Of a stretch of DNA of 64,000 bases, positions 10,401-53,625 are shown in pieces. Origin of the DNA: Octopus sinensis (taxonomy: Eukaryota); assembly GCF_006345805.1 (NCBI RefSeq), contig NC_042999.1:90024001-90088000 (forward strand), written 5' to 3'. Positions within the stretch are counted from its first letter, which is position 1. Every line of letters starts with the position of its first letter. The notes below the pieces were generated by a model that saw nothing but the letters and a program-made list of their open reading frames with translations, was not told where the DNA came from and ran no database searches. The position numbers and the translations under genes are program-made.

Positions 10401-13372
10401 AAAACTTTCAGTCAAATGAATTGACCCCAGTACTTATTTTTTTGTTAAGTCTGGCACTTATTCTATCGATCTCTTTTGCCGAACTTCATAGATACAGGGA
10501 TATAAACGCAGCAACACCACTTATCAAGTGGTAGTGGGAGACAGACACACACACACACATATATATGCACAATGGGCTTCTTTCAGTTTCCATCTTACAA
10601 ATCTACTCACAAGGCTTTGGCCAGCCTGAAGTTATTAGTTGAAGGCACTTGCCCAAGGTTCCACATAATGGAACTGAACCCAGAACCATGTGGTTGGGAC
10701 ACAAATGCCTTACCTCAGTCACGTCTGCACCTGTTGATATTTTACATGTATCGTAGTTATTGAATTTAATGTGAAACCATTCTTGATAATAAATACATCA
10801 TACTGATAACATTCTCTGTTTGATCACTCTGACTAAACTTGATCCTTCAGTCAGTAATCAAATTGTAGCCATCTTTATAATTGTTGTTTTGAAGATTTAG
10901 GATTCTGGGTTTTTTCCTCTACCTTTAAGATTTTACAGAGATTCTTGAGAGATACTTGGATATTGCATTGATAAGTAGAGCTACCATGTAGAGACTCTCA
11001 CAAGTTTTATATTTTTATATTTATTTGATGATGCTCTAGATTAACTAAGTCAATTGTGGTATGATTTGAAATCAGAACACTTAGCATCTCATCAATATTA
11101 CTGTTTTATAATTTTGGCTTTAAATCTAGATTGCTAACTTCACTGTCTTATTGGGCTAATAATTGTCTTGTTTTGTACTAAATTTGTTATTCTGAGGTAT
11201 CAGGATTTCCAATATGTGTCCTCGAATTTTAAGTGGCAGAGTCTGGATACTATATTAGGAAGCTAAATAACTGACACAGAACTTCCTTCGATGAGATATA
11301 TGTCTACATTCAGCTAGTTTGGACCAATTTGTTTATGTGATCTTTATTCAAAGTTTCATTTTATTTTGTAAAAGGTTCAAGTTTACTTTTAATAACTGAT
11401 TAAAATGAAGTGTGAAATCCCATTTTGTGGTGCTTTTTTAATTCACTGTAAATAGATTAACTATTTACAGAGTTGGTTTAAAACAAATGAACCAAGTGAG
11501 ATATAGCAAGCTTTTATTTTTTGTTAAATATATTTAATTTTAAAGAAAGATTATTTAAAATATTAATAAGAGAATAACAATCAAGTAATGTTGGAATTAA
11601 GGATTATTATTGGTAAATTTAAAATAAGTAAGAAATCAGGCTTAGAATTTGACCTCATCAATTGTTTACCAGAAAAATGTTTTTAGTGGACTTAACAGAC
11701 TTGATGATTTCAGATATAGAACATTCATAACTTGAAATCTATGAATTACTCAAATGGTTTACTAGACACGGCTAAGAATTCTATTCCTTAAGTGACCCGA
11801 GAGTAACAGTAGTGAAAACATAGTAGCTACAGTAAGCAATGGGTGGAAGAAATTTTAAGATGTTTTCACTATTGATTATAAAGAGCATGTCTCTTTGTAC
11901 AAAAGACAAACTAAATGAAAAGTAGCTCTGAATCTGAGTGGTTGGACATTAAAGCTGAAAGCCCTAGAATGGAATAATGAATGCATGTGCTGTTAGTGTA
12001 GAGTATTTGTAGCAGAGAATAACTATAACCAGAGGTAGTAAAACCTGCTGAACCCTCACATACAAAAATCTAAGATGAGTGATGATAAGTCAGATGTGTC
12101 TACCATGCAGTAAATGTTGATGTAGAAAGTTGAGCATTGAAACCATGACAACAATAACTTTACTGATTAGCAGAAACTATACTTCCACTATTTTACAGTT
12201 AAATTACCAGGTTAGACCAATTTATTACAGTTAAATTACCAAGTCAAGCTGAACAGAGATTTATATTTAACATTGCAGTAATAAAAAGCAGATGCTGGAT
12301 TGATACATTTGGATTGTCATTATTTATTAAATAGCTATCTACATTAAAATGTAGTTGGTATCGACTTTATAACACATAAGGCTTCATGTCAACATGTAAT
12401 GACTTTCAAAGCATTCACTTTTGTTCTTTTGATTTATATTACAGAGATGTACTTGCATAGCAAGTGACCTGATCTGCAATCATGTGCTGGAACGAAAACA
12501 ATTTCAGTATAGAAGGTGTTTATAAGCCATTTAAAAACCGTTAGATTCACTTTAACATTTAAATTTAATTTGCCAAAATATTTTAGTCATTTTGAGACTG
12601 CGACCTGATCACTGACAAAATTCCGGAATTTTGTCAGTGATCAGGTCGTGGTCTTAAAGCAGCGAAAATATTTTGGCAAATTAAATTTAAATGTTGAAGT
12701 GAATCTAACGGTTTTTAAATGGCTTATAAACACCTTCCATGCTGCAATTGTTTTTGATTCATACATTGCTGAAAATTTTATTTTATTAATTGTATAACAA
12801 AATTGAGATTCACTTAGTAATAAAAATTATATTTTTCTTATTCAGATTATTTTGAATGTGATAAAGAGTGGGAATCTTACGATGCATGGGCCAACAGAAT
12901 ATCATCTGAGAGAAAGAGAAAAAAGGAACCATGGAAATATGAGTTCAGTTTTAAGAAAGCTCATAAAAAGTTACACAGAGGGAATTCAAACACACACACT
13001 CAAAATCATGTTTCACGACCTAAAAGAAAACATTCTGAGAGAAAACTCACTGAAGTGGAATTTTTGAGGAATGAAAAGAAATACAAGAAGTTGTTAAATG
13101 GAGACCAGAAGGAAATTCTTTCTTATGATCGCTTTCCTTGGCCAACAGACAGCCAGGGAATATGTCTTTCTTATGAAGGTGTAGAATCTCTTCATATTGA
13201 CAATACATTAGAGAACAAAATGCTGGTCCGAAAACTGCAGCGCCGATGGCATCCTGACAAGTTTATACAGAACTTTGGAAACCGTTTGCTTGAATCAGAT
13301 AGGGACCACATTATTAAACAAATTAATGAAATAGCCAAAGCACTGAACAAAATTAATGAAAAATTAGTTTGA
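4286..13372 (+). CDS. NFKBIL1: NF-kappa-B inhibitor-like protein 1 homologue, 359 aa, join(4286..4482,6332..6447,8225..8349,10126..10240,12846..13372)
   Basis: All introns GT-AG with compatible phases (2,1,0,1), total 1080 nt. Ankyrin-like motifs (GGNLLHMCC, DCNGNLPHHYA), YQDFVQPFL..KNRFGEST, WKNKLE..DEYERSWGRYE, ESYDAWANRI, FPWP and QRRWHPDKFIQ..ALN match the recalled NFKBIL1 layout. Confidence 0.9.
5857..6222 (+). mobile_element. tRNA-derived SINE with Nin-like central domain, internally duplicated
   Basis: ggcgagctggctgaatcgttagc head; gagttcaaattccgccgaggtcgactttgcctttcatcctttcggggtcgataaa occurs twice. Related copies near 18650, 23460, 30300-30480, 44780-45330 and 61103. Confidence 0.8.
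6332..6447 (+). CDS. NFKBIL1: NFKBIL1 coding exon 2 (ankyrin repeat)
   Basis: acag|A acceptor, YLLRKEVDPLQTDCNGNLPHHYAVHQLL.., donor G|gtaagt. Confidence 0.88.
7150..8030 (-). mobile_element. Decayed RTE LINE fragments with an inserted RTE-tail piece (~7650-7780)
   Basis: Minus strand resembles FVDLEK, F.YLG and LLLLVTKDLPL segments seen in the other RTE copies; ggctgggtgcccttcctaatgccaacc tail motif. Confidence 0.55.
8225..8349 (+). CDS. NFKBIL1: NFKBIL1 coding exon 3
   Basis: Pyrimidine tract + ttcag|, VYQDFVQPFLNAFPGGLILKNRFGESTEDLL.., donor CAG|gtaatt. Confidence 0.88.
8750..8927 (-). mobile_element. tRNA-derived SINE, 5' part
   Basis: Same family as 28599-28997 (cagtgggattgaaccaggaaccat). 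Confidence 0.65.
9150..9760 (+). mobile_element. RTE LINE 3' end with tandem hairpin-module 3' UTR and (GAT)n tail
   Basis: ORF end ..EMTRDQDLWKYAVRGKTWQDK*, ~4 copies of gtgccggtggcacgtaaaaagcacc, gttggcgttaggaagggcatccagctgtag motif, gatgatgatgat tail. Confidence 0.8.
10126..10240 (+). CDS. NFKBIL1: NFKBIL1 coding exon 4
   Basis: ctttag|, SADIIDESEYINEAQAWKNKLEDIFEDEYERSWGRYEN, donor G|gtttgt. Confidence 0.85.
10345..10730 (-). mobile_element. tRNA-derived SINE (family of 28599-28997)
   Basis: Shares ttgtttcagtcattagactgcagcc, acttattctatcg.tctcttttgcc and the central (CA)n/(TA)n with that family. Confidence 0.75.
12495..12754. repeat. 260-bp spacerless palindrome (130-bp arms, ~12 mismatches), probable inverted retroelement termini
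   Basis: Symmetry centre aaaattcc|ggaatttt at 12624/12625; arms align without indels. Confidence 0.95.
12630..12680 (+). ncRNA. Degenerate minimal type I hammerhead-like motif (G3:C8 core variant)
   Basis: UUUGUCA-GUGAUCA-G-GUCGU(9 nt)GCAGC-GAAA-AUAU-UU-UGGCAAA; mirror copy on the minus strand at 12569-12619 has G12 mutated. Confidence 0.55.
12846..13372 (+). CDS. NFKBIL1: NFKBIL1 terminal coding exon
   Basis: ttcag|AT acceptor; open frame DYFECDKEWESYDAWANRI..FPWP..QRRWHPDKF..EKLV* ending in TGA at 13370-13372. Confidence 0.92.
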
Positions 13373-13424
13373 AAAGCATGTATTGTGTTGAAATTATTCT
13401 GTTGCTATAACTTCAAACTAACTG

Positions 13425-13485
13425 TAAAATAAAAAATAAAATACTTGAAATGCCTTACTTGTAGGGCGTGCATTAAATAAAATAT
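13425..13485 (+). terminator. Candidate NFKBIL1 polyadenylation signals
   Basis: Three AATAAA hexamers (~13428, 13435, 13477) followed by a T-rich stretch. Confidence 0.4.
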
Positions 13486-14763
13486 TTTATGTATTTGGAT
13501 CGTTTAAAATTTTCTTTATTTTTTACACTTCAGTGATTTTATTTGAATAGGATGGCTTTCACAAATTTGTACCTATTCGAGAAGTGGCAGTGTTGCACAT
13601 TAAACAATCTGCAGCAGACTGACACAAAAGATGCAATCTGCCTTCAAGTGGTACAGCACAAACACTATTGTTCTGGTTAGGAGACAAAGTTTACCTTCTT
13701 GGGAACTGTTTACCGAGTGATGAGAAATGTGGATTGGAAGGAAAAAAAATTTGTTTCATGTGTGTTGTGTAGTGACAAGGAAAATGGGCTACAATTTCAG
13801 TGGCTTGATCTACAGGAGTGCTACTCAAAGAACTGTATCGGTTAAGAAATTATAAGAATATTCTAGAGATACTCTTGGCCAGGGTTGCAACTGAAATGAT
13901 GAGAGAGTTTTTTCAATGATCATCTTACAGACATTGTGGTGGTTTATAAATACCTTTGTCCTTCACTTCCCTGTATGAACCACGTAGCAGTTTTGGTTTT
14001 GTCAGGGATATCTGCTTAGCTGGTTAAGTTGAAGCACATTTGTTACAGCAATAAGCATTGCTCCAACCATTGTTGTGGAACAGTTCACTTAGTTAAACTA
14101 TTAGTTTGGTAATCTGATGATTAGGTTTCAAGATGAGAAAGTGAGCACAAATGTATGGAAAATCAGTGTGTCAAGGAAATAAACAAAAGAGAAAAACTAG
14201 CTGATTTGTGATATGTTCCTTAAATATTAAACCTGAATAATTTCTGGAATTGATTGGCCAAGCTTTCTTTTTCATTATTAACAACTTTACACTTAGAGGT
14301 ATTGCAGAGAAGTTTCCTGTTATGTCCATCAGATAACTAGAAGATGAGCTCCCTGTAAGTCAACAAATATTGAGCTTGCAAGTTTTTATATGGGTGCTTG
14401 ACCTGCTGCAAATAGCAGCTAAAGCTTCACAAGTCATACTCAAATGGCTTTTTTCTTTAAAAAAAATGGGACACTTTGGACAGTGTAAATCCTGACATAG
14501 AAAATGATGGAATGGTCATGATTAAAATGCTTTTAATCATAGGTCTGTTTCATCAAAGTTAAGCAACATTCAATAGTGGGAGGTAAAGGTTTTCACTATG
14601 ATACTGGTGAAACAATACAAACCATTAACCCACTGACTGACACTTTGACACCTCAATTCAAACAACTATAAAACTAATACCAGACACAAAAATCAATTAG
14701 CATAGATATATTTTGTTATACAGTACAACTTTGTATTTTAATGGAAAAAAATTTTCAGGTATA

Positions 14764-15160
14764 AAATAATAATAATAAACATTGTGTACAGTGCTCAGGT
14801 GCACTACAACTCATCTAAAGTGCATATATAATCAGGTGTAGTTTCGACGGATTTCGGAAAGCATGAGGGCCTTAAAGGATGCAGTGTCATGGCAGTCAAC
14901 AACTGACGCAGGCAGTTTATTCCATGCTTCAGCAACTCTGAGCGTGAAGAAATGTTTCCGAAAGTCATGGGAGCGGTGTTGTTTTCTGACTTTGTAGGCA
15001 TGTCCACGTGTGTTAGACACATGGAGATCAAAAAGGTGTTCAGTGTTGTTATTGGTGAGGTGGTTGACAACTTTGTGGGTGTTTACCAAGTCCATCGCAA
15101 GACGCCGGAGCTTCAGTGAATCCATGCCCAGGGAAACAAGGCGCTCAGAATATGGTAGGT
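14764..15160 (-). mobile_element. 5'-truncated CR1-clade LINE 3' end
   Basis: ORF 14832-15125 has the CR1 C-terminal signature TRGH..K......RKHFFTLRVAEAWNKLP..VV.....SFK, then a short UTR and (TTA)n tail. Confidence 0.88.
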
Positions 15161-18100
15161 ATCTTTAACTTTACTTTATGAAAATAGTTAAAATTTATTT
15201 ATTTTTCAAAATGTTCATTAACATTTAATATAAAATTTAGTGGAGGTTTATACTGAACTATTTTAGAATTTTAGTGCCACTTATTCCAGATGCTGAACCC
15301 ATTGCCTTTTGATTATCATCCAAACATTCCTAACCACTAAGCCACATGCCTTCACCAGCTGGACTATCTACAGGAATTGATGATTTGCTCAACAAAAATC
15401 CATGAATTTTGGTTTCTTCTTTCATCTCAAACACCTGAAGTTCTTTACATCAAATAAAAAAAAAAAGGAAACCTAATAGGAATAAGAATACAACTGCTGG
15501 ACAATTCTTAATCTTATATGCAGAGATTTGTGGAATTTAGTCCAGCTTAACTCTACATCCACCACCAGCTAATTACACATAATTCATACATATTCTTTTC
15601 TCTTTGAGATCACTTTTCCAATCCATCTCCTCTAACCATATTACATTGTTCTTGAATAACTCTTGTTCTGTTCCCTTCACTTCCCACTTCGTATTGCATA
15701 TTCTTATAAAATACACCTTTTCTGTCTCATCACTACATACACAGTTACCTACATGCTAAAAAAGCAACCAAGTTTTCAAATGACACCTAACACCTTTTTT
15801 TAAATGATGCATTGGGCTTTGGAGTTTTAAATACACTGTATCTGAATAAAGGATAGTCAAAACTGAACTGCTTATGCTTTTACATATAGATTGTTATTCC
15901 AGTGTATTCAGATGTTTAAGTGCATGTATATTATATATATATGCATGCATGCATATGTGTGTGTGTATGGTTAAGAAGTTTGCTTCTCAACCATGTAGTT
16001 TTTAGGTTAAATCCCACTGTGACACCTTAGGCATGTGCCTTCTAGTATCTATCTATCTATCTCAATTTCACATTTTTTGAATTCTCTATATTAACTATCA
16101 AATTGTTGCCACTAGTAAGAAAGTACTTGTATGCCAGTTGCTATAGGCTTGCAGAGGTCATGAACACTTCCTTTGCAATCATTGTCATTCATACATTAAT
16201 ACATATACCATCATCACTTAAAATTCATCTTCAATGCTAGTAAGAGTCAGATGGTTCAACAGGATCTGATGAGACAGAAGGCTACATTGAACACCTATGT
16301 TTGCTACAGTATGGTTTCTACAGCTGGATGCTCTTCCTAACACCAACCACTTCTCAAAGTGTATTGGGTGATTTTTTTTCTTGTAGAATGGGCACAACGG
16401 AGGTTACCATGTAATTTGTAAGACAAAAAAGTTCCTTCAACTGAGTGGGTTTGTAGCAGAGATTGAAGTGACTTTATATCAGATGTTGAGAGACTAAAAT
16501 ATGATAGCAGGACAAAGAACTGTAGTCTTTTGATTTGTTATACTTAGAAGTTGTAAAGCTCTATAAAATATTAACTGGGCACAGTAATCACAGGAAAAGT
16601 TAAATACTGTGTAACCTAACATAGTATTAGTGGGAAAATGATTTAGCAAAGGAATTGCCTCGAGATGTATGGTCACAATAGATATAGAATGAAGGATATG
16701 AGATGCTGGTGGTTGTGTTGGGTTCGGGCTGCATAAAATGAATGCACAACACTCATGAACAATAAACAGAATTTTATTTCACTGCGCAAAATTTTCTGTG
16801 TTGGCCATGATTTTAAAATGCAACAACAAAATTTACACCCAAGAAGGACGATTCTGCAGCTATTAGAAATAGTTGATTAAGAAGGCTTTGTAATTAAGCT
16901 GCCAAGACAAGGCTTATGTTGGCAAACTGTAGCTGTTGTCTAGGTTAAGTAAAGAGTTGTGAGAATGGCTGCTAAAAGCAGCAAAAATGAGATTATGGTT
17001 AGCATAGCTGCAGGTGACCACAAACTGAAGTTTGGTGCTCAAAACGGGTCTATTTATAAGTTCTAGCAGATACTAGAAAGATGCATTACGTGATGTCTCG
17101 ATCCTATTTGGTCCATAACACGGGAAAAACTGTTTCTAGGCCCTGATTTTAACTTGGTAATTTTGATGATTTGGTTTTGGATTTTGCTACAAAATCAAAT
17201 TGAATCTACCCATCGTACTACAGTGTTTGCCAAGTGCTCTATAAAAATTATTTATTATAATCATTCAGGATCAAAACTTTACAATTGACGAGCCAATAAA
17301 GTTATTCTGACCTGCTAGAAATAATATCAAATAGTGAGATATATTTCATGGCTGAATCTGTAATAAACTGTATCTGAAGAGATGGGATAGTTCATGGTGA
17401 AAATACCTTTGATCAGGGCTGACCTGGGGCTAAACAACAACTTTCCAACAGTTTGAGCACCTTCTAACCTACATTTTTTTTTTCACCAGGGTTGAACCAT
17501 AACTATTACTTATAAACAAATATAAGTATGTAGAGGGATAAAAGTAAACGAACTGTTATACTTTCAATCACGCTCCTTGATAATTTGATCTTTTATACTG
17601 TTAATAATTTTTCTTTCTTTTCTTCTTGTAAAAATATGTTGGTAATAAATTTGCCTCTGATAATAATAAAAAATTAACAAAATATTTATTAAAGGTGAGA
17701 ATATATTGTGACACTAAGGAAAGATAACTGATACTATTTAGAACTGGTCAAAGTAAATAGGAGATTCTCTGTCAGCAAACACCGATAAGGGAGATGACTC
17801 TTATGATTACCGCAACTACCACAAATGTTTTGACCCATGTCAAGTGAGTGATATATTACTTTTTACTCTTCTTCTCTCTATTTCTGCAGCAGTTAATTAC
17901 TTTATTCTCTTGTGTATTCGGGCGTCTTTCTCTTTCTGTAGAAACTATTTACTAAACAATTTAATTGAATTATTTATTAAAATAAAATGTTTAATTTAGA
18001 ATTCAGCAAACAATTCTTTCATGTCCGAGCCATAATAATTGTTATGTTTTTTTACCGTTGATTGTACGATCGTGAACATATAAAGCTAAATTACTGAGGC

Positions 18101-19099
18101 CAAGTACTCTGAATGAACATTTTGACTAATCTTTTTTTTTTCTTCTTTTCTTAAAACTACAGAAATCTCTCCTTTATAATAGTTTGTTTCATTTCCTCTT
18201 CCTATATAACTCAAATATTTCGCCCAGTTTTTTTCCATCTCCTAATTTACGAAGACTTAATTTAACTGCTCCACCCTCACAACGTTAGAGCATCCTACTG
18301 GTTGATTTGACCATTTCCCTTCCAGTACTTCGCTTTAGTCAAAACCTAAATACACTTTTGTGTTTATAAGTTGTGAACATATACACTTCTTACTTGATGT
18401 ATCTATTCTAGTGTATAAAGTGTTACTGTCAACGCACTCCAATGTTATCCATCACTATATGTTTAACTGGTTCCAGATTTATCTGATCTACCGCGGGATG
18501 GTGTTACGTTGTTTTTGTTTGCCTAAATGACTTGTTTGAGTATATTCATGGCTCTCAGTTATCAATTTATATCCTGATACAGACCTAATCTTGATTTTGG
18601 ATAAACTGTTTAACTGGAGTTGCTTTCTTCATCACGGTTCAGCTGCCGTGTCCTATTTAATTGCTGACTTTGTGTCGTATTTTGAGTTCAAATCTCGGTA
18701 TAGTTGACTTCAATTTTTATTCCACCAGAGTTGACAACATAGTACCAGTTGTTGTTTAGGCACAAGTGAACTGTGATTAAGCTGATTCATTCGGTCATAG
18801 TTTGTCTCGGACTTCTTTATCAAGTATCTGTGACTTTCCGTGTTTTAAGACTAAGCTCCGGTTTGAGGAAGATTTAGCTGCTATTTTTAGCAGATCGAGT
18901 TACCACTTAGAAGCGTCTTCATTGGTTCACAAAGTATCAATAAATGAATATAACTTATTTCTATAACCAATTTCAAATATCTCACATTTTTCAAGAGTAG
19001 AGTTTATTAAGCTGACACATATACTATGCATGCTTATATAGAACTGGTATTTCTCTGCTGCATATCATACAACTCATTGTGCCATGAACGTTGAGAGAT

Positions 19100-20900
19100 T
19101 TAGGTGTAAGGTTGGTTAGAATGGTATGTCAGTGTGCGAGAGTTGGGGGACTGTGTTGTAAAGATGAAGAATGGGAAAAGTGATGCATAGTGAAAGTTGG
19201 AGTGCATCAGGGTTATTATTAAGCCCACAACTATTTGTACTTGTGAGTGAGAAGCTGGTTTGAAGTGTAAACGACAGTTTATTTTGATAGTTTGCTGTAT
19301 GCAGATGATATGGTATTAACAGCAGTGTGTGTGGATGGATTGAAGGAGAAGAGGAATGAGTGGAAGAAATGTGTGGAGGGAAAAGGTTTTGAAGGTGAAT
19401 ATTAGAAAGATAGAGGTGATGTCATGTGGTGAGATGGAAAGATTGGGAAGTGGATGTGTGCTGGAAAAGATGGAATGAATTTCGTTAAATATATAATATA
19501 CTCCAGATGGGTTCATCAAAAATGCAGTGATATGAGAGAATTATAAACTAATGTGGCTCCTACACTTGATTATGAGGTGGTATCAAAGAGTTCCAGGACT
19601 AGTTATGTTTAATAAAAAAAATATAAAATAACAAGTTTTAACATCATTTCCTTCAATACAGCAGTCCCAACATTCCTGCCATTTTTGGAATCCGACCTGG
19701 AAGTCATTTTCTGTAAGTGAGTTGAGGACCTTCTGCGTTTCACTCTTGATCTCGACAATGATGTTAAAAGAGTGACCTTTGAGCTGCCTTTTCATCTTGA
19801 GGAAGAGATGGAAGTCTACATGTACTAAATCTGGCATACAGGTTGGGTGCAGAAGCGATACTACCTTGTTTTTGGTGAGAAACTCACAAAAAAAGAGAGC
19901 TTGGTGACAAGGTGCATTATTATCTTGAAGAATCCAGACGTTAAGATTGCCTGCATGGACCCCTACGACAGTACAAAACATCAGCAATGTCATTGATTGT
20001 CCTCTAATAATCCTCATGCACAAGCTGATGAATTTTCTTCATATTTCCAAGGGTGACACTCATGATAGATCTTCCAGGGATGTTCTTTCACTTTTGAAGT
20101 CCTTTGAAACATTGCATATGACCCATTGTCTCATTACCACAAGCTGGCTGAAGCATGCTCAATGTCTCTCCAGCAAACTTCTCAAGTTTAACACAAAATT
20201 TCACGTTGGCTCTTTGTTCCAACTTCCTGTCCATGACAAAAATCACAGACTACAGGATACATGTGATCACAAAAACACAAATTTCACAACTTGCAAAGTA
20301 AACACAGCAATGTCACTTGGCACACTGCCTCATGAAAGTCACTGCTAGATCTCCCTGTACACAGAACCATGTGCTGTCATCTGTTGGCACACTACAGAAC
20401 TAGTTTGGGTATTTTTTTAAATACCACCATGTATGAAAAGAGCTACAGATGAAGAAAATGTTTGATTCTGGAAATTGCTAGAGTAAGATGCATGTGGAAG
20501 AAGTTCCAAGTTCTGAGTAGCATACTAATGAAGATGGGATTTTTACTGAAACTGAGGAGAAAGGTATGTGCTACATGTGTGAGAAGTTCTATGATTTATA
20601 GAAGTGAGGTGTAAGTCATGATCATAGAAGCAGAGAGGAGAGAAAGCTGGAAAGAATAGAAATGAGAATGGTTTGGTAGATGTGCAGAGTGTCATCAAGA
20701 AAGCAGAAGTCAATGAACTGCAAAGGATGATGTGAATTGAGCCAGCAATTTATGTATGCAGAAATGGGATGATATGGCTGAGTCATGCAGTTGGGTGAGA
20801 GGAGTGGTGGAAATGAATGCAGAAAAAAGTAGGAGGAGGACAAGGGATTTCATTGTGAGAAATGTAAAGGATAAAGCAAAATGGAGGAGAGGGTTATTGG
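19100..20900 (+). mobile_element. Old RTE-like LINE remnant interrupted by a mariner element
   Basis: gtgcatcaggg..agccca (VHQG..SP) at ~19203, tatgcagatgat (YADD) at ~19298; RT C-terminal-like sequence resumes after 20433. Confidence 0.55.
19573..20431 (-). mobile_element. Internally deleted mariner (Tc1/mariner) transposon
   Basis: ORF 19583-20023 has DNNAPCH, HPTCMPDLVHVDFHLFLKMKRQLKG and FQKWQECWDCCI (mariner DNA..H and YSPDLAP.D motifs); degenerate TIRs tgaggtggtatcaaagagttccaggactagt / actagtttgggta..ataccaccatg flanked by TA. Confidence 0.85.
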
Positions 20901-22981: not shown

Positions 22982-22982
22982 C

Positions 22983-32165
<9,183 letters not shown>

Positions 32166-39514: not shown

Positions 39515-39790
39515 TCTGTAGAATTGGATTCACTGCACATAGGACCATAGTTCTGATAAACTGACAAGAGCTCAGCATTCAATAACCCCATCAAATTTTT
39601 TATCATTGTGGAAATAAAAAGGGCACAGGCAATTTATTACTGAGGTACAGAGATGAAAGTGAAGCTCTTTCAAGTAAAACTTCAAATTTTCAGCATGCCA
39701 TGCAGTTCTGCAAACAATGTGACATGTGCTTAGTCTGAGATAATGTAGAACTACTAATAAACTAAAAAGGATATTAACTAGTTTTACCCT
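39515..39790 (+). mobile_element. Possible Penelope-like GIY-YIG endonuclease remnant
   Basis: Broken frames read IGFTAH, FNN.IKFF, RYRDESE, LSSK and CKQCDMCL, in the order expected for the PLE endonuclease C-terminal region. Confidence 0.35.
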
Positions 39791-39839
39791 TCACTTCCTA
39801 CTATCATTCCCTAACCATACACCATCCACATGCAAAATC

Positions 39840-42300: not shown

Positions 42301-42499
42301 AGAGGCGGGTGCTGAAAAGTTCCTGGTTTTGGGTAAAAGAAAATACAATACAATGATTTTATTCAAGATACACTCCTCTCAGATTCACACACTTATTGTA
42401 GCAGTCCCTCAGTGTTTCTAAGCCCTGTAGAAGAAGGTTAGGTGTCTAAGCAGGCCTATCATGATACCTTTAAGACAGGAACTTTACAGCACCCTTTTG
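42301..42499 (-). mobile_element. Mariner-derived MITE
   Basis: TA-flanked TIRs gggtgctgaaaagttcctg / caggaactttacagcaccc; internal minus-strand CVNLRGVYLE* resembles a mariner C-terminus. Confidence 0.75.
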
Positions 42500-44764
42500 T
42501 AAGTAGCTTTCCAATAACTTAACAGATAATGGAATTGCATGTGAATTATATCATGCTCAAACAACAATTATTTATTGCTGCACATAATTCAATAATCATA
42601 TAATTAATTGAATTATGAAAAATTGTAGTAGTAACAATATCAACAATAAGAAAAAAAAAAATGAAAGTTTAAAAAATAACTCCAGAAACAAATTAGCGAG
42701 TTAATAAATTTTATTTATCATTTATCATGGTGATGGTAGCAGCAGCAATATTAAAATATTTATTACGAAAAAGAAAGTTATTACTTACAACTGTAAAGGC
42801 AAGCATGGAATAAAATGGCAGATTAGAGTAAATAAATATAGTCAAAAAATACATCAATGAGGATAAAAGATAGAAATATGAAAAGTTCTAAACTAACATC
42901 AAAAATATCTAGATAATTTTCAAAAAACAACTTTTTACACAAAAGATGTATGATATAGTTATAAAATGGAGTAATATACCAACTATGGACAATAGAAAAA
43001 ATGGCCCAACTACAAAAATACTTTTATAATATCATAGAGATATGCATCATTTTGAATATACAACTAAAATATTGTTTTAAATGTTAAGTATGAAATATAT
43101 ACACATGTATATAATATTAATTACACACACGCACACACATACACACACAACATGCACAGACACACATATAATACTATTATTGTTTAATTGGAAGTAAATT
43201 TTGATATGAATTTTTATGTGCTATTGCAGCACAGAGTTTGCATGCTAGAGAAAAAGAATACAATAAACTCTTCGTGGACTACAAGTCTCCAAAGAGCCAC
43301 TGCTCAAATTAGGTTTCTGCAGTGTTATCCCTTTTTAGATGTTGTACTGTCATAGGGAAGTCTCCTTAAAAAGTGAGCACTGAAAAAAAAAAAAAAAAAA
43401 AAGAGCAAATCTGGAATTAAGTGTCTTAGCAAAAAAAAAAAAAAAAAGGGCCAGTGGGATATAAACACACAAATGGGTTGTTTGTTTCTTCCATTTTAAG
43501 TGTTCTTGAGATTCAAAGAAGACAGAGAGATGGTTGCCAAAACAACAAAAACAAGCTAAGTACATGAATAATCTGTTTTAAAGATGAAAAAGAAACGTAA
43601 GATTCTCATTTTGTAACAGGCTGATATTCTCTTCCAAATGAAGGGAAAAGTCCATGGCTATCACAGTAGACTAGAAGACTGTCAAAGAAAATTAAAATAT
43701 GATTGAATGGATGATAAATGGAAATAATTTCAAGATAAAAATAATTTATATATCACATAGCAGGTGACATGTTATATATTTATATCATGTAGTGTTATTA
43801 TCACACAGTGAGTTGGGTGTTGTGTGCTTTATATATCCCAAAGTGTGTTATATGGTACAACATGCTATACTTCATACAGTATATATCACACAGTTTAAAA
43901 AGTCAAATGTATTTATGTGTACACATCACACGAGTTCTTTCATCATATACTGCATATTTGAATGGTAGAGTTAATTCCTTGCCCAGTTTAACACTACTGC
44001 CTGGCCTTTGGATACCTTTAGCCAAATTTACTGTTTTAAACATTTAGGGTAGCTTTCCAATCAGAGGATAACTTCCTCTTACCAGTCCTAGAGGACCTCA
44101 AAAGGGTTATAGGTGCTTCCCTATTTCCTTTGGCAATACTAAAAAAAAAAAAAGATATATATATATATATATAGTAGTACAGTCTATACATCATTTAGTA
44201 TATTATTAATCACACACATTGTATCATGACATAGTAATACATATTTCATTATATATCATGACACGCATCACATATTTCATTATATATCACATAGTATATA
44301 TTAAAAGTCAGCATGTTACATATTCCTCTTTGTGTTATCTGTTTTAAGTTTCATTTGTAACAGAGAGAGAAATTACTTATAAACAAAATTTTACTTGTAT
44401 ATTCGACATTGACAGAGATAGTAGAATGGTTAACATACCACTACAGATGTCAGCATAAAAAAGTGAGATTTAAAACTATTATCACAAAACATTCCAAGAC
44501 ACTTTAAGTAAAAACTACTAAAATTGTTTAGTGCAAGTCTAAAGACGAAAAATAATTGAAAGTGTACAGGTAGGTCAATTCAAATTTTCAATATCAATTT
44601 GGTGTGTGAGATTATAAGTTGAAGTTAGATATAAACTGAAGATTCAGTGTGTTTCATGTCAATATGATTCTTTTGGTAACACTATCTTAACACAACCATG
44701 CCATTATGGTGTTGAGGATAACAACAATGAAATAATAACAACTGTTAGAATGATAATAATGATT

Positions 44765-45620
44765 TCTCATTTAAGTACAAGCCCAGTCATTTTGAAGGGG
44801 AATTGGTTTGTCAAGACCACTGAACCCCAGTGTTTGACTAATACTTTATTTTATTGATCCCGGAAGAATGAAAGGCAAAATAAACCTCAGTGGTATTTTA
44901 ACTCAGAATGTTAAGAGCCCAAAGAAATGTCACAGAGCATTTTGTCCATTCCAATAATTTTAACCATAATAATTTCTTTTTATCAAGAAAGACCAGAAAC
45001 TTGAGGGAGGGAGCAGTTGATTATATCAATGAGTACTCAGCTGCTAGTTTATTTTATCAACCTCAAAAAGATGAAAGGCAAAGTTGACTTTGGTGGGATT
45101 TGAACTTAGAACATAAAAAGCCATAACTAAATATCACACGGCAGTTTGTCAAACACTGAAACAGATTTACCAATCTACTACTCCAGAATGATAATAATAA
45201 TTCTTTCTATTGAAGGCACAAGGCCTGAAATTTTATGGGAAAGGACTAGTCAATCACATCAACTCCAGTGTTTCACTGGTACTTAATTTATCGACCCCAA
45301 AAGGATGAAAGGCAAAGTCGACCTGGATGGCCTAATAATAATAATCAGGTAAATGGATATAGCTGATAAAGTTAAATCAGTACTTAACTCAAACTTTATT
45401 TTCTCAACTCACATAGAATGAAAGTCAAATTTGAACTTGGCAGGATTCGAACATAGAATATAAAGGAAAACAACTACTAACTGCAATTTTGTCTAGCACT
45501 CAGTGATTTCATTGCCCTTAACCTAAAAATAATTATTTCAAATTCAGGCACAAAGCCAACTGTTTTGAGAGGAGGAGGATGCTAGTTAATTCATTAATCC
45601 CAGTATTAAACTGGTACTTT
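44765..45620 (-). mobile_element. Cluster of Nin-like SINE fragments
   Basis: Repeated gatgaaaggcaaagtcgac and tactt(t)attt(t)atcgacc separated by (TAA)n. Confidence 0.65.
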
Positions 45621-48600
45621 ATTTTTATCAATGCACCCAAAAGGCTTAGTTGCAAAAGTGCTTGTGTGGGAATGAGTAAGAAAGGACCCATGCACTCTGG
45701 ATAGTTAAGATACAACAGTTCATTAATTTAATTCAGTTTTTATTAGCAGTTTATTGTTTTTATGCTTTACATAATCAGAGTCCATCTCCTTGCAAATCTG
45801 CATTTGATCTTTTCCAAGATCATGTTGCAAAGCATCTAATAAAAAATCTATCAGTTGATCATTCACTATATATGTAAAAAATTACAAGTTTCCAGAGGGA
45901 GATGGCGTCCTTCACACATTCCACTCACCTTCCTTAAGGAGGTAAACTTCGCTTTTTAAGGGTCTTTTTCTTTTTTGATTTTACTCTTTCCACTGACTTT
46001 GATAGTCTTTCACCTCATTCCATTGTTTATCTGCTCTACATCACAAAACAATGGGATTGTGTTGTTAATCAAGGCAGGAGGAGAGGAGTCCTTGATTGCT
46101 AGCTTTTAAGAGGTGGTCTATTCTGTTATTTTGGTAACCTTGACAAGTGGTGCTTTGGAAAAAGGAATTTCAGTGGCCTGCTATTGTTGACACTGTCTCT
46201 GCTGTTCCTGATTCTTGAATTCTTCCAGAAAGAGCTGCTGAAAAGGACCTTATTGTCACACAAGCAGCTTGGCTTCTACCTTGCATTGCCAGTCTCACTG
46301 ATGTTATTTCTGCACCCCCAGTTTGGTACAGCTCTGAATTGGCCCTGCAGGCTTTGGGGATCATTAAGACTTGGATATCTACATAAACCTCTCCTGCCCA
46401 TACCATTTCTAGTCACTTCTGCACTCACACATATCCATACTGTTTTGCAAAAGGTAGTCATCAATTTAGCTTGCTTTCTTGCTCTGTCCTCAGTTTAAAC
46501 AAACTAGGCCTTAAGCCTTATTTCAACCATGAGAAGAGACATCACTTCAGACACTGGTTATGGCAAACCTCCAGATGTTGCTTTAAGGGCATAAAAAAAA
46601 GCCTTTTTTTTTCAGGTGGTAGTGGTGGTGGAAAGTTGTGATGCAAAGATATGTGACTTCCTTCTTGTTTGCTCTTGAGTAAAGTCATCAGGTAGGGAGG
46701 TATATAATATTTTTGTTACATATTTCTGCTATGTAGATTTTTCTCTGCTTGGTCACATATATTTAGCTCCTCTTAAAAGTGCTAGTGAAAAAATTGCTTT
46801 TCCTGTCAGTGTTGCTCAAAACAACACTTTCACCAATTAAATTTGACTTGTTTTTTCAACAAAAAAAGTGTGTTGTTGTTGTAACAGTAACATTTAAATT
46901 AGCATTTTAAAATGTTAAAATATTCTTTTGTGTGTATATGAGTTTTACTAAAAGTTTTGTTGTTTAGCAGTCTCATTTTCACTCTATGCTTCTCTGTTGG
47001 AAAGTCATTTCAAGTTAAATAAAAATTATAGCCCTTTTGTCTCTCCCTGGTATGGAAGTAAATGTCTAATGTATACCATGTATCTCAATTGAAAATTATT
47101 TTTAAAAACAAATATTTTCTTTTCATTTACATTAATTGAAGAGTTTTGCAACACATGTATACATAGCAAACATGATGATAATCATACCTCCATAAATTAA
47201 AGAAGTTCATAAAATTGGAACTAATCAATGAATTGAGAAGTTTAAATGAATAGAAGATAACTTTCTGCTGGAAAAAATAGTTATCTAAAAAATAGACAGA
47301 AAATCTGGTATAAAATTATATACTCCTGTACGTATGTATATGAGTGTGTGTGTGTGTGTGTGTATAAACCCCCAAATTCCTATATTGGATATGAACTCCT
47401 GAGTTGTTAGTCTAGTTTTTTATTCACATCACACTTTTCTATCATCATCATCATGACGATTTCCACCATGGAATAGTTATGTTCTACAATGATTAGAGTT
47501 TATGAATGCAAATTTTGAAAAAGTAAGCAATAAAAGCTAAAAAAAAAAAAAAGATTTTGTTTTTTTCTATTTACTAAGTTTAGGTTTACAATCAATAATC
47601 AACAAACTATTGTTGAGGTTGTATTGTTTTGTGTTGAAATAATTCAGTGAAAAGACATCAGAGCAAAACATGGATAATTACTTTTGTTCAAAAATACTAG
47701 CTTTATGCAAGAAAAGATTTGGTTTAATAATAGCAACAGAGCAAAGCTGGATAAGAATGACGGGAAACATTGAGCACAGAGAAAGCAAAAATAAATTAAT
47801 ATCATTAGAAGAAGTTCTCTTACAGAAGACAATGATATGGAAGAAATGAGAACATTTCAGTGCTAGGCACAGAAACAAAAATGATTTCTAACAGCAATGA
47901 TTCAGAAAAAAATAGACTTTATTTAATAACTTCCATCTGGACATGAGTGAGAGAAAACTGTGATATCTAATTTTAAATTTCATGAAGATTAAGATAAAAA
48001 TAACAGAATAGAAACTTTGGCATCATTTTTTTCTCCTGGTTTTTACTTTTATGCCATACAAAACCTGAGACTAATAGCCTTTGTTTATAGACACACATGA
48101 TATAAGCAAAAGGAAAACAGAGCAATAGTTTTATGAAAGACAAGATTCTCAAATCACAAAGGTAAAGGTGCATTGGGTAAATCTCAAAAATTGGAAATTT
48201 TACATTTTTTAAAAAGCAGAATAAATATTATACATTTTAAAATTTATTTTGTTGCACTATGAATGAATGGAAAAGCCCAGAGTTTATTATGGTTGTTAAT
48301 CTGTTATTGTATGCATATTTTAAACAGATGAGATATATTTTAATCAAACTGATAAATATTCACCACTGAACAAGTATAAACCAACAAAAGAACAATAAAA
48401 TTTCTACATGCATTAAGCTCTATTTTTTCTATTCAGTCATGGATTATTAGTTAGGTTTACCCAGAGCTATATTTAGCTCCATAACAATTATGTACAATCC
48501 TGACAAACCTGAAATAGGACAACTATGTTTATTGGTCCATTCATTTTCAGAACAGGAAGGGGTACAATGAGAGGGTTGGGGGGAACAGCAGATAAATATA

Positions 48601-49275
48601 AATCAGACTGGTTAAGAGTGTGTTCTATATTTTGAGTCACCATTATCATACTTGAATGGGAATATTAACAATATGAAATAAAATCAGAAGCTATTGAACA
48701 GAATATATGTTTAAATAGGAACAGGGTTCCAGGACAATTAATAGAAATGAAATAAAGATGGTTCTTTGAAAAATTCATATTACAATTTCCTACAGATTTT
48801 ATTTTACATAGATTTCTCATTACCAGTATACATACTGACCAAAACACAAAACATATTTACAAAATTAGCTGGAAATATTTACACAAACAGAATGCATGTG
48901 TATATTGTGAATATTTTCAACAATGTTCACAATATTAGAAATGAACAGCAGTAGAAATTACATTTGGGAAAAAAAAATTCCCATTTATTTGAAAAAAAGA
49001 TAATTTCATTTTAATGGTTTTAAAATGTATTATGTCAAGTAAAATAGACAAGACAGAATACCTTTAACACATACAGGACAGAAGTTTGCATGACTGATAT
49101 AGACAATCTGTGATATATAAAATAATCATCTTAGTATGCCTGATAAACTCCAAGACACACATAATAGTAAAAATAAATACTACATGTGCCATGTAGAAGA
49201 GACATGTTTCTATGACAGGCAGAGTCAGTTATTTGAAACTCAAAATAGGAAAATAAGAATCTGTGTGTGTGTGTG

Positions 49276-49319
<44 letters not shown>

Positions 49320-50375
49320 CATATATTGTATAATAATAGCAGCATACAAACAGAAAATGTATATACAATAAAACAAACACATCAATTTCAGCTCTAGGTC
49401 CCTCTTTATGATCAGTACTTGACTCAGCTCTGCTCCAAACACAAAAACTAGATGGATGATATCACACCGGACGCAACTAACAATGGAAATTAAACTAAAC
49501 TATATAAAATACAATAAAAATTATACAGTGGATAGATTTAAGTGCTAGATATATGGACCAGCAATAAGTATGTCATGTCAGGAGACAAGGCCGAAGATTC
49601 TATGTGGTTGCCCAATCAGTTAAATCTCTTTCAAATTAATAAAATGGCATCAGATATGTAGACTTGCTTAATTAACATATGTGCATGCATGCATGTAGTG
49701 TGTGAGAGAGAGAGAGAGAGAGAGAGAAAGATGATTTCTGCTGGAATCTTAGGTCTGTTCAATCAGGTCTGCTGAAGAGTTAAACCACAATATTTATCAA
49801 TGCTACACAAAACAACAAGAATAAACCCTTAAGCAAATATTTACTACAAATCACAATATTTGCATGATGTGAAGTTTCAGATGTATATAAGGATGAAATT
49901 GTTTTTCACAACTGTTTTACTGTTGTCTTTGGCCGAACAAAATTTAGCTGAATGTGGAATTAATAAAACTGATACTATTTATTAAAAGCACTCAGTGATA
50001 CTTGGACTTCTTTTAAAATATATGCCCAGCATGAGTTATCAATAGATATGTAAAGCATTTAAAATTATTTTGATATATATATATATATATACATACGCAT
50101 AGGAGTGGCTGTGTGGATAGGCATAGGAGTGGTTGTGTGGTAAGTAGCTTGCTTTGAACCACATAGTATGTATACATATATATATGTATGTATATATGCA
50201 CATATATATATATGTATTTGTATATATACATATAGATATATATGTATATGCGTGTGAGTATATATATATATACATATGTGATATATATGTATATATATAT
50301 ATACATGTGATATATATGTATATATATATATATACATATGTATTTGTATATAAACATAAACATATATATGTATAC

Positions 50376-50416
<41 letters not shown>

Positions 50417-50746
50417 TATATGTTATATATATATGTACATATACATACATATATATTATATATATTTATACATATATATCAATGTATGATGATGATATTA
50501 TATAAACATATATATATATTTATATATACATATATTACATTTGCATATTATATATATATATATATACATATTATATACACAAACATATGTGTGTGTGTAT
50601 ATATACATATATATATATAGATAGATATATGTTATATATATATATATATGTATATATACATACATATATATTATATAAACATGTATATATTTATATATAC
50701 ATATATATTACATTTGCACATATTATATATATATACATATTATATA

Positions 50747-50798
<52 letters not shown>

Positions 50799-50929
50799 GA
50801 GGGCATTATACATACATGCCAAAGAGCATTATACATACATGTCACACGCTAAGAGGGACAATTAGTCATTTCTACCAAAAATATTACTAATCCCACCGAA
50901 TGCAATTTTTCAAAATAAGACATTTAAAA

Positions 50930-50991
50930 AATACAGACCTGTATCACAGTGATTTCATACTTACGTATTCATCAGCAGGCCTGAATGTATC
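50930..50991 (-). ncRNA. Type I hammerhead ribozyme
   Basis: Minus-strand RNA GAUAC-AUUC-AGGCCUG-CUGAUGA-AUAC-GUAA-GUAU-GAAA-UCA-CUG-UGA-UA^CAGGUCU-GUAUU: full core, three stems, AUA cleavage triplet. Confidence 0.88.
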
Positions 50992-51141
50992 ATAAATAAA
51001 CGACCCTGCCCCGCTTAAGCCGATCAGCTAACTGATCAACATCAACAAAGCACATGGGTGAGTTTACATATATTACATCCTGTAAATGGCATACTTTTAC
51101 GAATTGCATTTCGGGAGAGGAAAAGTTTTTTCGGAATAAAA

Positions 51142-51217
51142 ATTTAGCAATTAAGGACAACTACTTAATAAGGAAAACTTAAGTTTTCCTTATTAAGTAG
51201 TTGTCCTTAATTGCTAA

Positions 51218-51219
<2 letters not shown>
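51142..51219. repeat. 78-bp perfect palindrome
   Basis: atttagcaattaaggacaactacttaataaggaaaactt|aagttttccttattaagtagttgtccttaattgctaaat. Confidence 0.95.
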
Positions 51220-51274
<55 letters not shown>

Positions 51275-51956
51275 GTAAAATAATGTCACAATTATTCAGT
51301 AGCCAAGATAAAACTCTGAGTTTCGGATGCCGTTTTTACCAATATATATATATAATATATATATATATATACACACACACAGATACATATATAAAGGGAA
51401 CATACACACAATACAAGGCATTAAAACTTTTGGACAGATAGACAATACATAGGTGGACAAGTGAAACAACAATTAGGACAGGCAAAAAAAAAATGGTCAT
51501 TCTTGGCTTTCTTTCATGAGTCAAATCCTAGAAGTCACGACCATCTCGGGCAGTTATACTTCAGATGGTTCAATCTGGTTGCGCCCATAAAAGTGTAAGC
51601 TAAGAAAGCTAGCGAATGTGTACGGCAACAAAAACAAAAAGCAAATAAACAAAAAATGGAGAACATGGTACACAATTACGAATACAAACAATATATATAC
51701 ATATATTCATATCTCTCTCTCTCTCTTTTACTTGTTTCAGTCATTTGACTGCAGTCATGCTGGAGCACCGCCTTTAGTCGAGCAAATCTACCCCAGGACT
51801 TATTCTTTTGTAAGCCCAGTACTTATTCTATCGGTCTCTTTTGCCGAACTGCTAAGTGACGGGGACGTAAACACACCAGCATTGGTTGCCAAGCAATGCT
51901 AGGGTGACAAACACAGACACACACACATACATATGTATATACAAATATATGCATAT

Positions 51957-51990
<34 letters not shown>

Positions 51991-52230
51991 TACATACATA
52001 TGCATATATACACATATATACATACATATGCATACATATATATACATACATATGCATATCTATAATCACATCATCATCATCATTGTTTAACGTCCACTTT
52101 CCATGCTAGCATGTGTTGGACGATTTGACTGAGGTCTGGCGAACCAGATGGCTGCACCAAGCTCCAATCTGATCTGGCAGAGTTTCTACAGCGGGATGCC
52201 TTTCCTAATGCCAACCACGCTCCGAGTGTG

Positions 52231-52267
<37 letters not shown>

Positions 52268-52291
52268 TTACATATGCATATATATACATAC

Positions 52292-52332
<41 letters not shown>

Positions 52333-52386
52333 TATATACATATATACATAAACACATATATCTATACATATACATACATATCTCTT

Positions 52387-52421
<35 letters not shown>

Positions 52422-53411
52422 TTATTTATTTAATACAAAATTTATAAAGAAGATCAAAAGTAATATTTAATTAATTGAACATTTGTTCTGTCCAATAGGA
52501 AAAATTTTCAGAGGAAGTTGGAACTAAAAATATCAATGTGTCAGCTTTTAATGTATGGGAGTTGCAATAAAGCTCTTTTAGGAATATGAGTATAGGTAGA
52601 AAGTACACATAAGTAAAGACTGATAGGGTGGTTTACAAAGCAAACTTATAAACCCAGGTATGTAAACCCTGTTTTAAGAGAGGTAGAGATAGAAACCCAT
52701 TCAACATAGTAAAACAGGTATAATAAGCATTCTTGTCTCAGTGTACATGGTTGTTTGTAGGGAAAAGTTAATGGGGCAGAAAAATGCAGTGGTTTATAGA
52801 CTCATAAATCATTAGGTTCAAATCTTCTTACAGGTGATGTCTGAGTATTACCTAATTTCACTTAAAATAGAGTCACATCTAACTAAAGTAGGTGATATTC
52901 TGAACATCAAAAATATGAATGCTCATATCCAATCACAATATTGTACTGTGTCTTTGACAAAGTTACTTAACTCTCAACAGCCGTGAAGAGGTATCAAAAA
53001 ACGGTTTTTCATTGGTTTGCAGAGCTGGGCACAAATCTTACCATAGGCCAAGCAAAGAACAAGGTAACATATTCCCTCATGAAACAAAACAAGACTAAAT
53101 GTTCAACAAACAACTCAAATAACATGAGATTATATTTACTTTTCTGCAAATGTCTTCATTTTTAAAACTATTTGATACATATTATAAAATAGATATAAAT
53201 TGACTATACAAATGTATGCACATCTGTTTGTCTAAGTATATTCGAGATATTGTATATATATTTCAAAGAAATATTGAAGGGAGGTAGGAAGAATGAGACT
53301 AATTATATGATGACATCTCTTCAATCAGTCACAATATGTGACTGTGACTAATTTTAAAAAGTTTAATAAAGTCAAACTAATGGAGGATGAGGTCAGAATA
53401 TAAAGACAAAA

Positions 53412-53625
53412 TATTGGAAATGTTTCGTTTTGGGATTTGGTTTGCAAGATTCTTTATATGAGTTCGTGTGTTGAAGCATATTCTGTTGTGTCTGGGGAAA
53501 GTCATTTTCTTTTTGTGCCTTATAATGTAACACACTCACCGGTAAAATTTCCACTTATTTCTTATTTTTATTTTCCTAAAATTTTCGTTGTCTTGCAACC
53601 TTTTCAAGTCTTGACTCTATTGGAA
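53412..53625 (-). mobile_element. Probable Penelope-like terminal fragment carrying a U3:A8 hammerhead-like motif
   Basis: Minus strand UUGAAAA-G-GUUG-CAAGA-CAAC-GAAA-AUUUUAGG (53607-53575), then a donor-like ccg|gtgagt and a short ATG ORF; remnant inverted junction ttttcaa.gtcttgac.tctattggaaa. Confidence 0.45.

What the first reader, a model, noticed from the sequence alone, without database searches (positions are those of the whole stretch)
12569..53625. Candidate system: repeats carrying three different hammerhead 3-8 core pairs at fold-back junctions
Seen: one window holds CUGAUGA (C3:G8, ~50970), GUGAUCA (G3:C8, ~12640) and UUGAAAA (U3:A8, ~53604) cores, each followed by hairpin-GAAA-self-complementary stem III, plus a half motif at ~51320. 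Each full motif lies within ~200 bp of a perfect or remnant spacerless inversion, and two motifs sit in (TA)n tracts. A possible PLE endonuclease remnant lies at ~39520. Inference: a diverse PLE/retrozyme repertoire seeding ribozymes and dsRNA hairpins near genes, which canonical-core searches would largely miss. Novelty for this lineage is unverified.
Basis: partly seen in the sequence, partly recalled or inferred. Interest (0 to 1): 0.78.

Follow-up and report, generated by a model that had tools for sequence, protein, structure and literature searches.

The report
Penelope transposon ends carrying variant hammerheads
The motifs are leftover ends of four abundant jumping-gene families (three sit behind Penelope-type retrotransposon genes, one is a tandem repeat), each carrying a hammerhead-shaped RNA predicted to cut itself; only one window copy is intact, and the unusual point is a family of thousands of copies with a swapped G3:C8 core that I found described only as a lab mutant.

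Summary
The three cores and the half motif are real and each belongs to its own high-copy repeat family. Intact family copies fit a type I hammerhead (0 of 3000 shuffles each). A (G3:C8), C (U3:A8) and D (C4 or U4 core) are 5'-truncated pLTR ends of Penelope-like elements (PLEs). Longer copies lie in sense behind RT/GIY-YIG ORFs, and copies show 5' inversions, two alternative 3' ends and (TA)n targets. B is a young 475-bp tandem retrozyme. In the window only B is intact; A, C and D are decayed, and the A fold-back would pair the motif with its own antisense. The fold-backs are the known PLE insertion scar. The endonuclease remnant at 39520 is not supported. U3:A8, the extra nucleotide and the palindromic stem III are published for PLEs. 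A natural G3:C8 family (988 exact core matches, many of them Helitron-borne copies) did not turn up in my searches, but a key paper was unavailable. Cleavage and expression are untested. The scan noted a similar PLE end before in another genome. Verdict: new variant of a known kind.

The parts
12439..12754 (.). Family A insertion: fold-back of two pLTR-end copies of an old Neptune-like PLE. Inverted arm 12625-12439 runs to the long 3' end; forward arm 12624-12754 stops at the short end.
   Evidence: blastn to copy L164, 87-88%; inversion; family; ORF link in L305 and L170/L252
12630..12680 (+). Decayed G3:C8 hammerhead motif (core 12637-12643, extra G, stem II broken, palindromic AAUAUU stem III, 7-bp stem I)
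12570..12619 (-). Second decayed G3:C8 motif in the inverted arm (core from 12612; G12 lost)
50782..51182 (-). Family B insertion: 401 nt of a 475-bp tandem retrozyme unit, 98% identical to a family copy, between (TA)n tracts
50934..50983 (-). Intact canonical type I hammerhead (CUGAUGA; predicted cut after 50942, AUA triplet)
51179..51225 (+). 5'-inverted 47-nt piece of the B unit forming the spacerless fold-back; holds no hammerhead
51267..51344 (-). Family D fragment: 3' half of a hammerhead (core missing) preceded by an inverted 15-nt piece of the family's long 3' end; pLTR end of another PLE family
53425..53627 (-). Family C insertion: pLTR end of a Neptune-like PLE with U3:A8 motif (core 53607-53601; stem I lost) and a 10-nt inverted remnant at 53618-53627

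Best explanation
The motifs are independent insertions of four repeat families: A, C and D are 5'-truncated ends (pseudo-LTRs) of Penelope-like retrotransposons, B is a tandem repeat that is likely a non-autonomous retrozyme, and the hammerhead that each family carries is predicted, not shown, to self-cleave. Shown: longer copies of A, C and D sit in sense 0.4-1.3 kb behind RT/GIY-YIG ORFs. Copies have 5'-inverted pieces, two preferred 3' ends 55-65 nt apart, and (TA)n targets. A and C end inside a ~30-codon frame; its homologue is the ORF start in tandem copies of a young Neptune-like family. Inferred: a PLE RT/endonuclease nicks AT-rich DNA and starts reverse transcription at one of two sites early in the ORF. 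It copies back through the whole hammerhead (so the template was uncleaved) and usually stops, or switches template, 10-40 nt past the core. That leaves ~200-nt solo ends and fold-backs. Inferred: the 3-8 pair and stems were kept in the active master elements, where the motif would work as a slow, dimer- or protein-assisted ribozyme. The dispersed copies are dead-on-arrival scars that decay neutrally, mostly at CpG.
For: Family sizes: first-look candidates 905 and 13,446 (A), 895 (B), 1334 (C), 803 (D). Intact descriptor in 22 of 57 A, 28 of 29 B, 17 of 27 C and 13 of 19 D copies; 0 of 3000 shuffles for each family's test copy. In A the only common non-CpG variants inside the motif are N7 (A 46, U 12 of 59) and a U-A/U-G swap in stem I (27/30). 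ORF links: C in L160 and L088; D in sense 300-1100 nt downstream in 9 of 20 EN-bearing loci; A in L305 and L170/L252, colinear across ORF, 3' UTR and A. CX4CxxC linker in the C-linked and young elements, the Neptune mark. 5' inversions in 33 of 57 A, 14 of 27 C and 8 of 19 D copies; (TA)3 at 3' ends in 27/57, 8/27 and 6/19 against 12% at random places. Bimodal 3' ends: A ~150/~208, C ~145/~198, D ~106/~171. Peptide similarity A-C 1 of 20,000 shuffles, A-Neptune 2 of 20,000; the Neptune peptide opens the ORF in tandem copies. B forms arrays of at least 11 units with an inverted piece at one end. Literature.
Against: The ORF link for A rests on 2 decayed loci among roughly 120 A loci examined; no intact A-type ORF appeared among the 150 scored hits (longest open frame 193 aa). 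No PLE ORF was linked to B. In 5 of 14 loci holding both an EN fragment and D, D was not in sense at 300-1100 nt. The A-peptide frame was chosen after looking at the sequence. Stem I of C is only 3 bp. U17 (A, C, D) and the core changes are expected to slow cleavage (recalled). No cleavage or expression data.
Confidence: 0.88

Rival explanations
1. Working, host-useful ribozymes and dsRNA hairpins placed near genes: the window copies cut or regulate neighbouring transcripts.
For: B is intact, and its stem III could close as a monomer (4 bp plus 3-nt loop, read from the sequence). B, C and D lie in sense 3-6 kb downstream of a minus-strand LRR gene. A forms a 137-bp hairpin about 85 nt upstream of a putative exon.
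Against: A, C and D are broken in the window. The A motif is predicted to be buried in the hairpin. At these copy numbers several inserts per 64 kb are expected. Retrozymes tend to avoid genes in frogs.
Confidence: 0.07
2. The variant motifs are structural signals that no longer catalyse. The hammerhead fold is kept as a binding or stop signal for the PLE protein, which would explain why 5' ends and fold-back points cluster just upstream of stem I.
For: 5' ends lie within 25 nt of the core in nearly all A copies (the reference starts there, so longer ones are clipped; 2 known to extend), within 20 nt in 15 of 27 C copies and within 39 nt in 17 of 19 D copies. Cores differ widely between families (G3:C8, U3:A8, C4, C9). 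Hammerhead mutants did not affect insertion in vitro for an Anolis PLE.
Against: Catalytic G5, A6, G12-A14, A15.1-U16.1 and a Watson-Crick 3-8 pair are all kept. C3G/G8C retains partial activity. Clustering could come from a promoter or splice site in the pLTR. This rival concerns only the role of the motif and is compatible with the PLE origin.
Confidence: 0.3
3. A, C and D are chance look-alikes inside ordinary repeats (SINE or MITE), and only B is a hammerhead.
For: The loose descriptor is only about twofold above background in the window. Rfam has no hit. The A fold-back resembles a MITE.
Against: Intact copies fit the full three-stem descriptor (0 of 3000 shuffles). They sit at the position where PLEs carry hammerheads and are linked to PLE ORFs. 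Fold-back junctions differ from copy to copy, unlike MITE termini.
Confidence: 0.03

Closest known systems
Minimal hammerheads in pLTRs of metazoan Penelope-like elements (Cervera and de la Pena 2014, PMC4209133; parts 1-2 of 4 read)
   Same: Type I fold, extra nucleotide between 9 and 10.1, G10.1-C11.1, palindromic or absent stem III, U3-A8 covariation, mostly solo truncated copies, opposite-strand pairs 100-700 bp apart, many divergent families per genome.
   Different: The text read reports U3-A8 but not G3-C8, C4 or C9 cores. Its supplementary figures were not seen.
Non-LTR retrozymes (Cervera and de la Pena 2020, PMC7229834, passages; Li et al. 2026 bioRxiv 10.64898/2026.07.22.740005, part 1 and passages)
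   Same: Family B: non-coding tandem unit with one canonical type I hammerhead per unit, as monomers to long arrays.
   Different: The unit is 475 bp, longer than the ~300-390 bp in the passages read. Circular RNA and cleavage were not shown here. No parent PLE was found.
Neptune-clade and Poseidon PLE insertions (Craig et al. 2021, PMC8557442, passages; Frangieh et al. 2024, PMC11167929, parts 1-2 of 4)
   Same: 5' truncation, 5'-inverted copy, optional tail at one end, (TA)n bias, CX2-5CxxC linker, hammerhead next to the ORF start, reverse transcription starting inside the ORF from uncleaved RNA.
   Different: Tails here are 55-65 nt rather than 30-40 nt. The ORF starts 50-90 nt after the motif, not inside stem II. 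Solo ~200-nt ends dominate the copies.
Engineered C3G/G8C hammerhead and natural core variants (Perreault 2011, PMC3088659, section 8 and passages; PMC8495972 and PMC3884650, passages)
   Same: Watson-Crick 3-8 pair kept; natural U3-A8 and U4C are known.
   Different: In the passages read, G3:C8 appears only as a laboratory rescue mutant with partial activity; here it is the fixed state of a natural family.

Membership tests
Type I hammerhead (PLE minimal type) | Core N3-U4-G5-A6-N7-N8-A9, G12-A13-A14, A15.1-U16.1, H17 with a Watson-Crick 3-8 pair | tested here: met
   Met in intact family copies of A, B and C; D has C4 in 10 and U4 in 3 of 13 intact copies; G3:C8 in 56 of 59 A copies. In the window met only by B.
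Type I hammerhead (PLE minimal type) | Stems I and II and a short palindromic stem III | tested here: met
   A 7/5 bp, B 8/4, C 3/5, D 6/4 in family copies; 0 of 3000 shuffles. Not met by the window copies of A, C and D.
Type I hammerhead (PLE minimal type) | Extra nucleotide between A9 and 10.1; G10.1-C11.1 | tested here: met
   A and C have both; D has G-C with a bulge on the 3' side; B has neither (A10.1-U11.1).
Type I hammerhead (PLE minimal type) | Site-specific self-cleavage | not testable with these tools
   Needs in vitro transcription or end-capture sequencing.
Penelope-like element pLTR end (A, C, D) | Located in sense 3' of an RT plus C-terminal GIY-YIG ORF | tested here: met
   C: L160, L088; D: 9 of 20 EN-bearing loci; A: 2 loci, both decayed. 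Intact PLE ORFs with RVT_1 and GIY-YIG matches exist in the genome.
Penelope-like element pLTR end (A, C, D) | 5' truncation with inverted copy, optional tail, (TA)n target | tested here: met
   (18 of 34 A loci inverted after removing 26 carrier-borne copies).
Neptune clade (A, C) | CX2-5CxxC linker between RT and EN; placement on an RT tree | tested here: inconclusive
   Linker present in the C-linked L160 and in young L249, decayed in the A-linked L305; no tree was built. D's clade was not assigned.
Non-LTR retrozyme (B) | Non-coding tandem unit with a type I hammerhead in each unit | tested here: met
   475-bp units, arrays of at least 11; 28 of 29 copies intact; no long frame in the three sense frames translated.
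Non-LTR retrozyme (B) | Expressed as self-cleaved linear and circular RNA | not testable with these tools
   Only assembled contigs were on offer; they cannot show ends, strand or circularity.
PLE GIY-YIG endonuclease remnant (39520) | Similarity to GIY-YIG EN; repetitive | tested here: not met

The most novel reading that the evidence does not exclude
Family A is a natural G3:C8 hammerhead, a core so far described as an engineered rescue mutant, fixed in a Penelope-like element that reached thousands of copies. Together with U3:A8, C4 and C9 families in the same genome, it shows PLEs keeping the 3-8 pair and the fold while tolerating slow cores. The fold would then act as a protein-assisted switch or stop signal that sets where reverse transcription ends and folds back, producing ~200-nt SINE-like hammerhead ends.
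Probability: 0.3. Interest if true: 0.62.

Novelty: new variant of a known kind. Interest (0 to 1): 0.4.

Why it matters
The role of hammerheads in PLEs is open: in the one in vitro system, cleavage needed the protein and was dispensable for insertion. One genome holding at least six PLE or retrozyme families with C3:G8, G3:C8, U3:A8, C4 and C9 cores is a natural allelic series for testing whether catalysis or only the fold is selected. Some of these families have intact ORFs. It also shows that Rfam and canonical-core searches miss thousands of such motifs, and that short fold-back repeats in this genome are PLE scars, not MITEs. For the genes in this window it probably matters little.

Tried and rejected
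Rfam scan: no hammerhead family at E<=1. Endonuclease remnant at 39520: rejected. One system or cluster: rejected; the families share no DNA similarity beyond architecture, except that C resembles the end of the young Neptune family (72%). Parent ORF for B: none found among 30 GIY-YIG loci and 20 larger loci. The EN remnant beside B in L047 is separated from it by a TA tract, and B was not found beside related ENs in the other loci. Search for an intact A-type ORF with the 31-aa peptide: longest frame 193 aa among 150 scored of 13,446. A test for shared upstream sequence among 60 A loci plus L170 gave 0 pairs, but it missed the L305/L170 pair because simple repeats were masked. Lower mutation rate in the A core (1.5% against 3.6%): not used, because 30 of the 63 copies were picked by a core pattern. 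The count of 988 exact A cores is not a count of independent insertions: 26 of the first 60 fetched are cargo of one Helitron-like element. A cap-derived G at the 5' end of A (G in 7 of 10 copies): rejected as unproven, since full-length L170 also has G. Expression: no RNA holder listed. Contigs of four runs only guessed to be RNA cover 29 of 30 bins of the B unit and show the head-to-tail joint in 3 of 4. A genomic tandem gives the same joint, and no silent control stretch was obtained, so this is no evidence. Identity of the putative exon at 12845-13372: no Pfam hit and no named Atlas cluster; its likeness to NFKBIL1 is recalled only. Literature: 8 searches found no report of a natural G3:C8 family or of hammerheads in octopus repeats. 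Lunse et al. 2017 and Arkhipova et al. 2017 were not held, and no supplements were read, so either may already contain G3:C8.
Full report
Setting. The window is G000:C3:90024001-90088000 in a 2.72-Gb animal genome. The host is probably an octopus; this is recalled from the look of its SINEs and the genome size and was not verified. It holds ATG5 exons (Pfam), a minus-strand LRR gene at 56945-58147, a putative exon at 12845-13372 and many repeats.

Observation. The three cores and the half motif are at the stated places. A descriptor allowing any Watson-Crick 3-8 pair gives 9 loose hits against 4.7 in shuffles. Only the CUGAUGA motif (B) has all three stems: 1 observed, 0 in 40 shuffles at stem I >=7. 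Rfam has no hammerhead hit. The fold-backs are real for A (137-nt arms) and B (45 bp); for C only a 10-nt remnant is left. The proposed endonuclease at 39520 has no ORF, is single-copy, and is missed by tblastn and by a profile built from 20 of this genome's PLE endonucleases that finds decayed controls easily.

Each motif is a repeat family. A is a ~208-nt dispersed element (905 first-look candidates by DNA, 13,446 by peptide, 988 exact matches to a 35-nt core with 0 for the reversed control). B is a 475-bp unit, 97-99% alike, in arrays of at least 11. C (1334 candidates) and D (803) are dispersed. Real copies restore what the window copies lost. A reads GUGA(A/U)CA, extra G, 5-bp stem II, GAA, AAUAUU palindrome, U17, 7-bp stem I. 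C reads UUGAAAA, extra G, 5-bp stem II, AAUU palindrome, 3-bp stem I. D reads C(C/U)GAAGA with a long stem II and 6-bp stem I. The full descriptor is met by 22 of 57 A, 28 of 29 B, 17 of 27 C and 13 of 19 D copies, and by 0 of 3000 shuffles of one intact copy per family. Within A, decay is mostly at CpG (19% against 3.6%). The only frequent non-CpG variants in the motif are the free N7 and a U-A/U-G swap in stem I. A and C differ by compensatory pairs at 3-8 and in stem II (read).

Link to Penelope-like elements. The genome has many GIY-YIG loci (147 matches among 150 scored), some in 775-883-aa frames; the two tested also match RVT_1, just under its cut-off. C follows the endonuclease of a decayed element with RT motifs and a CX4CxxC linker in L160 and L088, and 6 of 27 copies extend more than 460 nt into that 3' UTR. 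D lies in sense 300-1100 nt behind another PLE ORF in 9 of 20 EN-bearing loci; 6 of the 20 held no D, some being clipped. A follows a decayed Neptune-like ORF in two loci on different contigs, L305 and L170/L252, colinear through ORF, UTR and A. The last ~30 codons of A and C resemble each other and the end of a young Neptune-like family (1 and 2 of 20,000 shuffles; frame picked after inspection). In tandem copies of that young family the peptide is the ORF start. Copies carry the PLE insertion marks described by Craig 2021: 5' inversions in 33 of 57 A, 14 of 27 C and 8 of 19 D copies, (TA)n at 3' ends above the 12% background, and two preferred 3' ends 55-65 nt apart. The window A insert has the long end on one arm and the short end on the other. 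No parent ORF was found for B, which fits the definition of a non-LTR retrozyme.

How it likely works. Shown: the anatomy above. Inferred from Frangieh 2024: the PLE protein nicks AT-rich DNA and primes at one of two sites early in the ORF on uncleaved RNA, which is why copies hold the whole hammerhead and not just the part 3' of the cut. Synthesis mostly ends, or switches template, shortly past the motif, giving solo ends and fold-backs. In masters the motif is predicted to be a slow dimeric or protein-assisted ribozyme. In the window A, C and D are broken, and the A hairpin would pair the motif with its antisense. B is the only candidate for activity.

A caveat found on the way. Of 60 intact A loci fetched from the first 100 listed of 988, 26 share one junction and flanks. 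In 10 of 10 examined further they lie in a ~2-kb element with TC and CTAG ends, a subterminal hairpin and insertion between A and T, which are Helitron marks (recalled). So part of the G3:C8 count is passive cargo.

Comparison and novelty. Cervera 2014 already reports minimal hammerheads in pLTRs, U3-A8, the extra nucleotide, palindromic stem III and opposite-strand pairs (parts 1-2 of 4 read). Perreault 2011 reports natural U3-A8 and mentions U4C. G3:C8 appeared in my reading only as an engineered partial rescue. Eight searches found no natural G3:C8 family and no octopus hammerheads, and an octopus repeat annotation has no occurrence of 'ribozyme' (term search). Lunse 2017 and Arkhipova 2017 could not be read and no supplements were seen. 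An earlier scan note from another genome reached a similar PLE-end reading; it is not independent support.

Verdict. New variant of a known kind on the strength of the G3:C8 family and the allelic series of cores; interest 0.4.

Noticed in passing
L291-L349 (26 loci), L351-L360: A young (about 92-98% alike) ~2-kb non-autonomous Helitron-like element carries one family-A fold-back, a family-D tail, a SINE piece and a ~107-bp tandem repeat as cargo; it accounts for 26 of 60 intact G3:C8 cores sampled.
   Followed up: partly
L222-L251, L262-L266, L277-L290: A young Neptune-like PLE family (7566 first-look candidates, frames up to 1044 aa) has a hammerhead-like motif with core CUGAUGC (C at position 9), extra G and a 5-bp stem II in its pLTR.
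   Followed up: partly
L118, L119, L128, L131-L134, L141, L145, L148: A PLE family with intact 781-aa RT-GIY-YIG frames carries its own U3:A8 hammerhead (UUGAUAA) 3' of the ORF.
   Followed up: partly
family D loci (L193, L198, L203 and others): D has two subfamilies: CCGAAGA with one stem I haplotype and canonical CUGAAGA with another, so C4 is a lineage state and not decay.
   Followed up: partly
L305 near 2970; D loci 12 nt upstream of the core: In long copies of A and D a pyrimidine tract plus CAG sits just upstream of stem I, resembling the pLTR intron acceptor noted for D. virilis Penelope or a start site; it coincides with the 5' boundary of solo A copies.
   Followed up: no
L270 (C29:1139278-1142370): A tandem array of at least 7 family-A units separated by TA tracts, a retrozyme-like arrangement that could supply dimer partners.
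   Followed up: no
window 24866-25189, 29438-29737 (+); 56945-58147 (-); 12824-13372 (+): ATG5 exons, a 400-aa single-frame LRR gene, and a 182-aa open frame without a Pfam hit.
   Followed up: partly
window 63777: Another near-perfect inverted repeat (49-bp arms, 10-nt gap), not examined.
   Followed up: no
L257 1520-4824 (-): Gag- and pol-like frames of an LTR retrotransposon next to a D-linked PLE; observed only.
   Followed up: no
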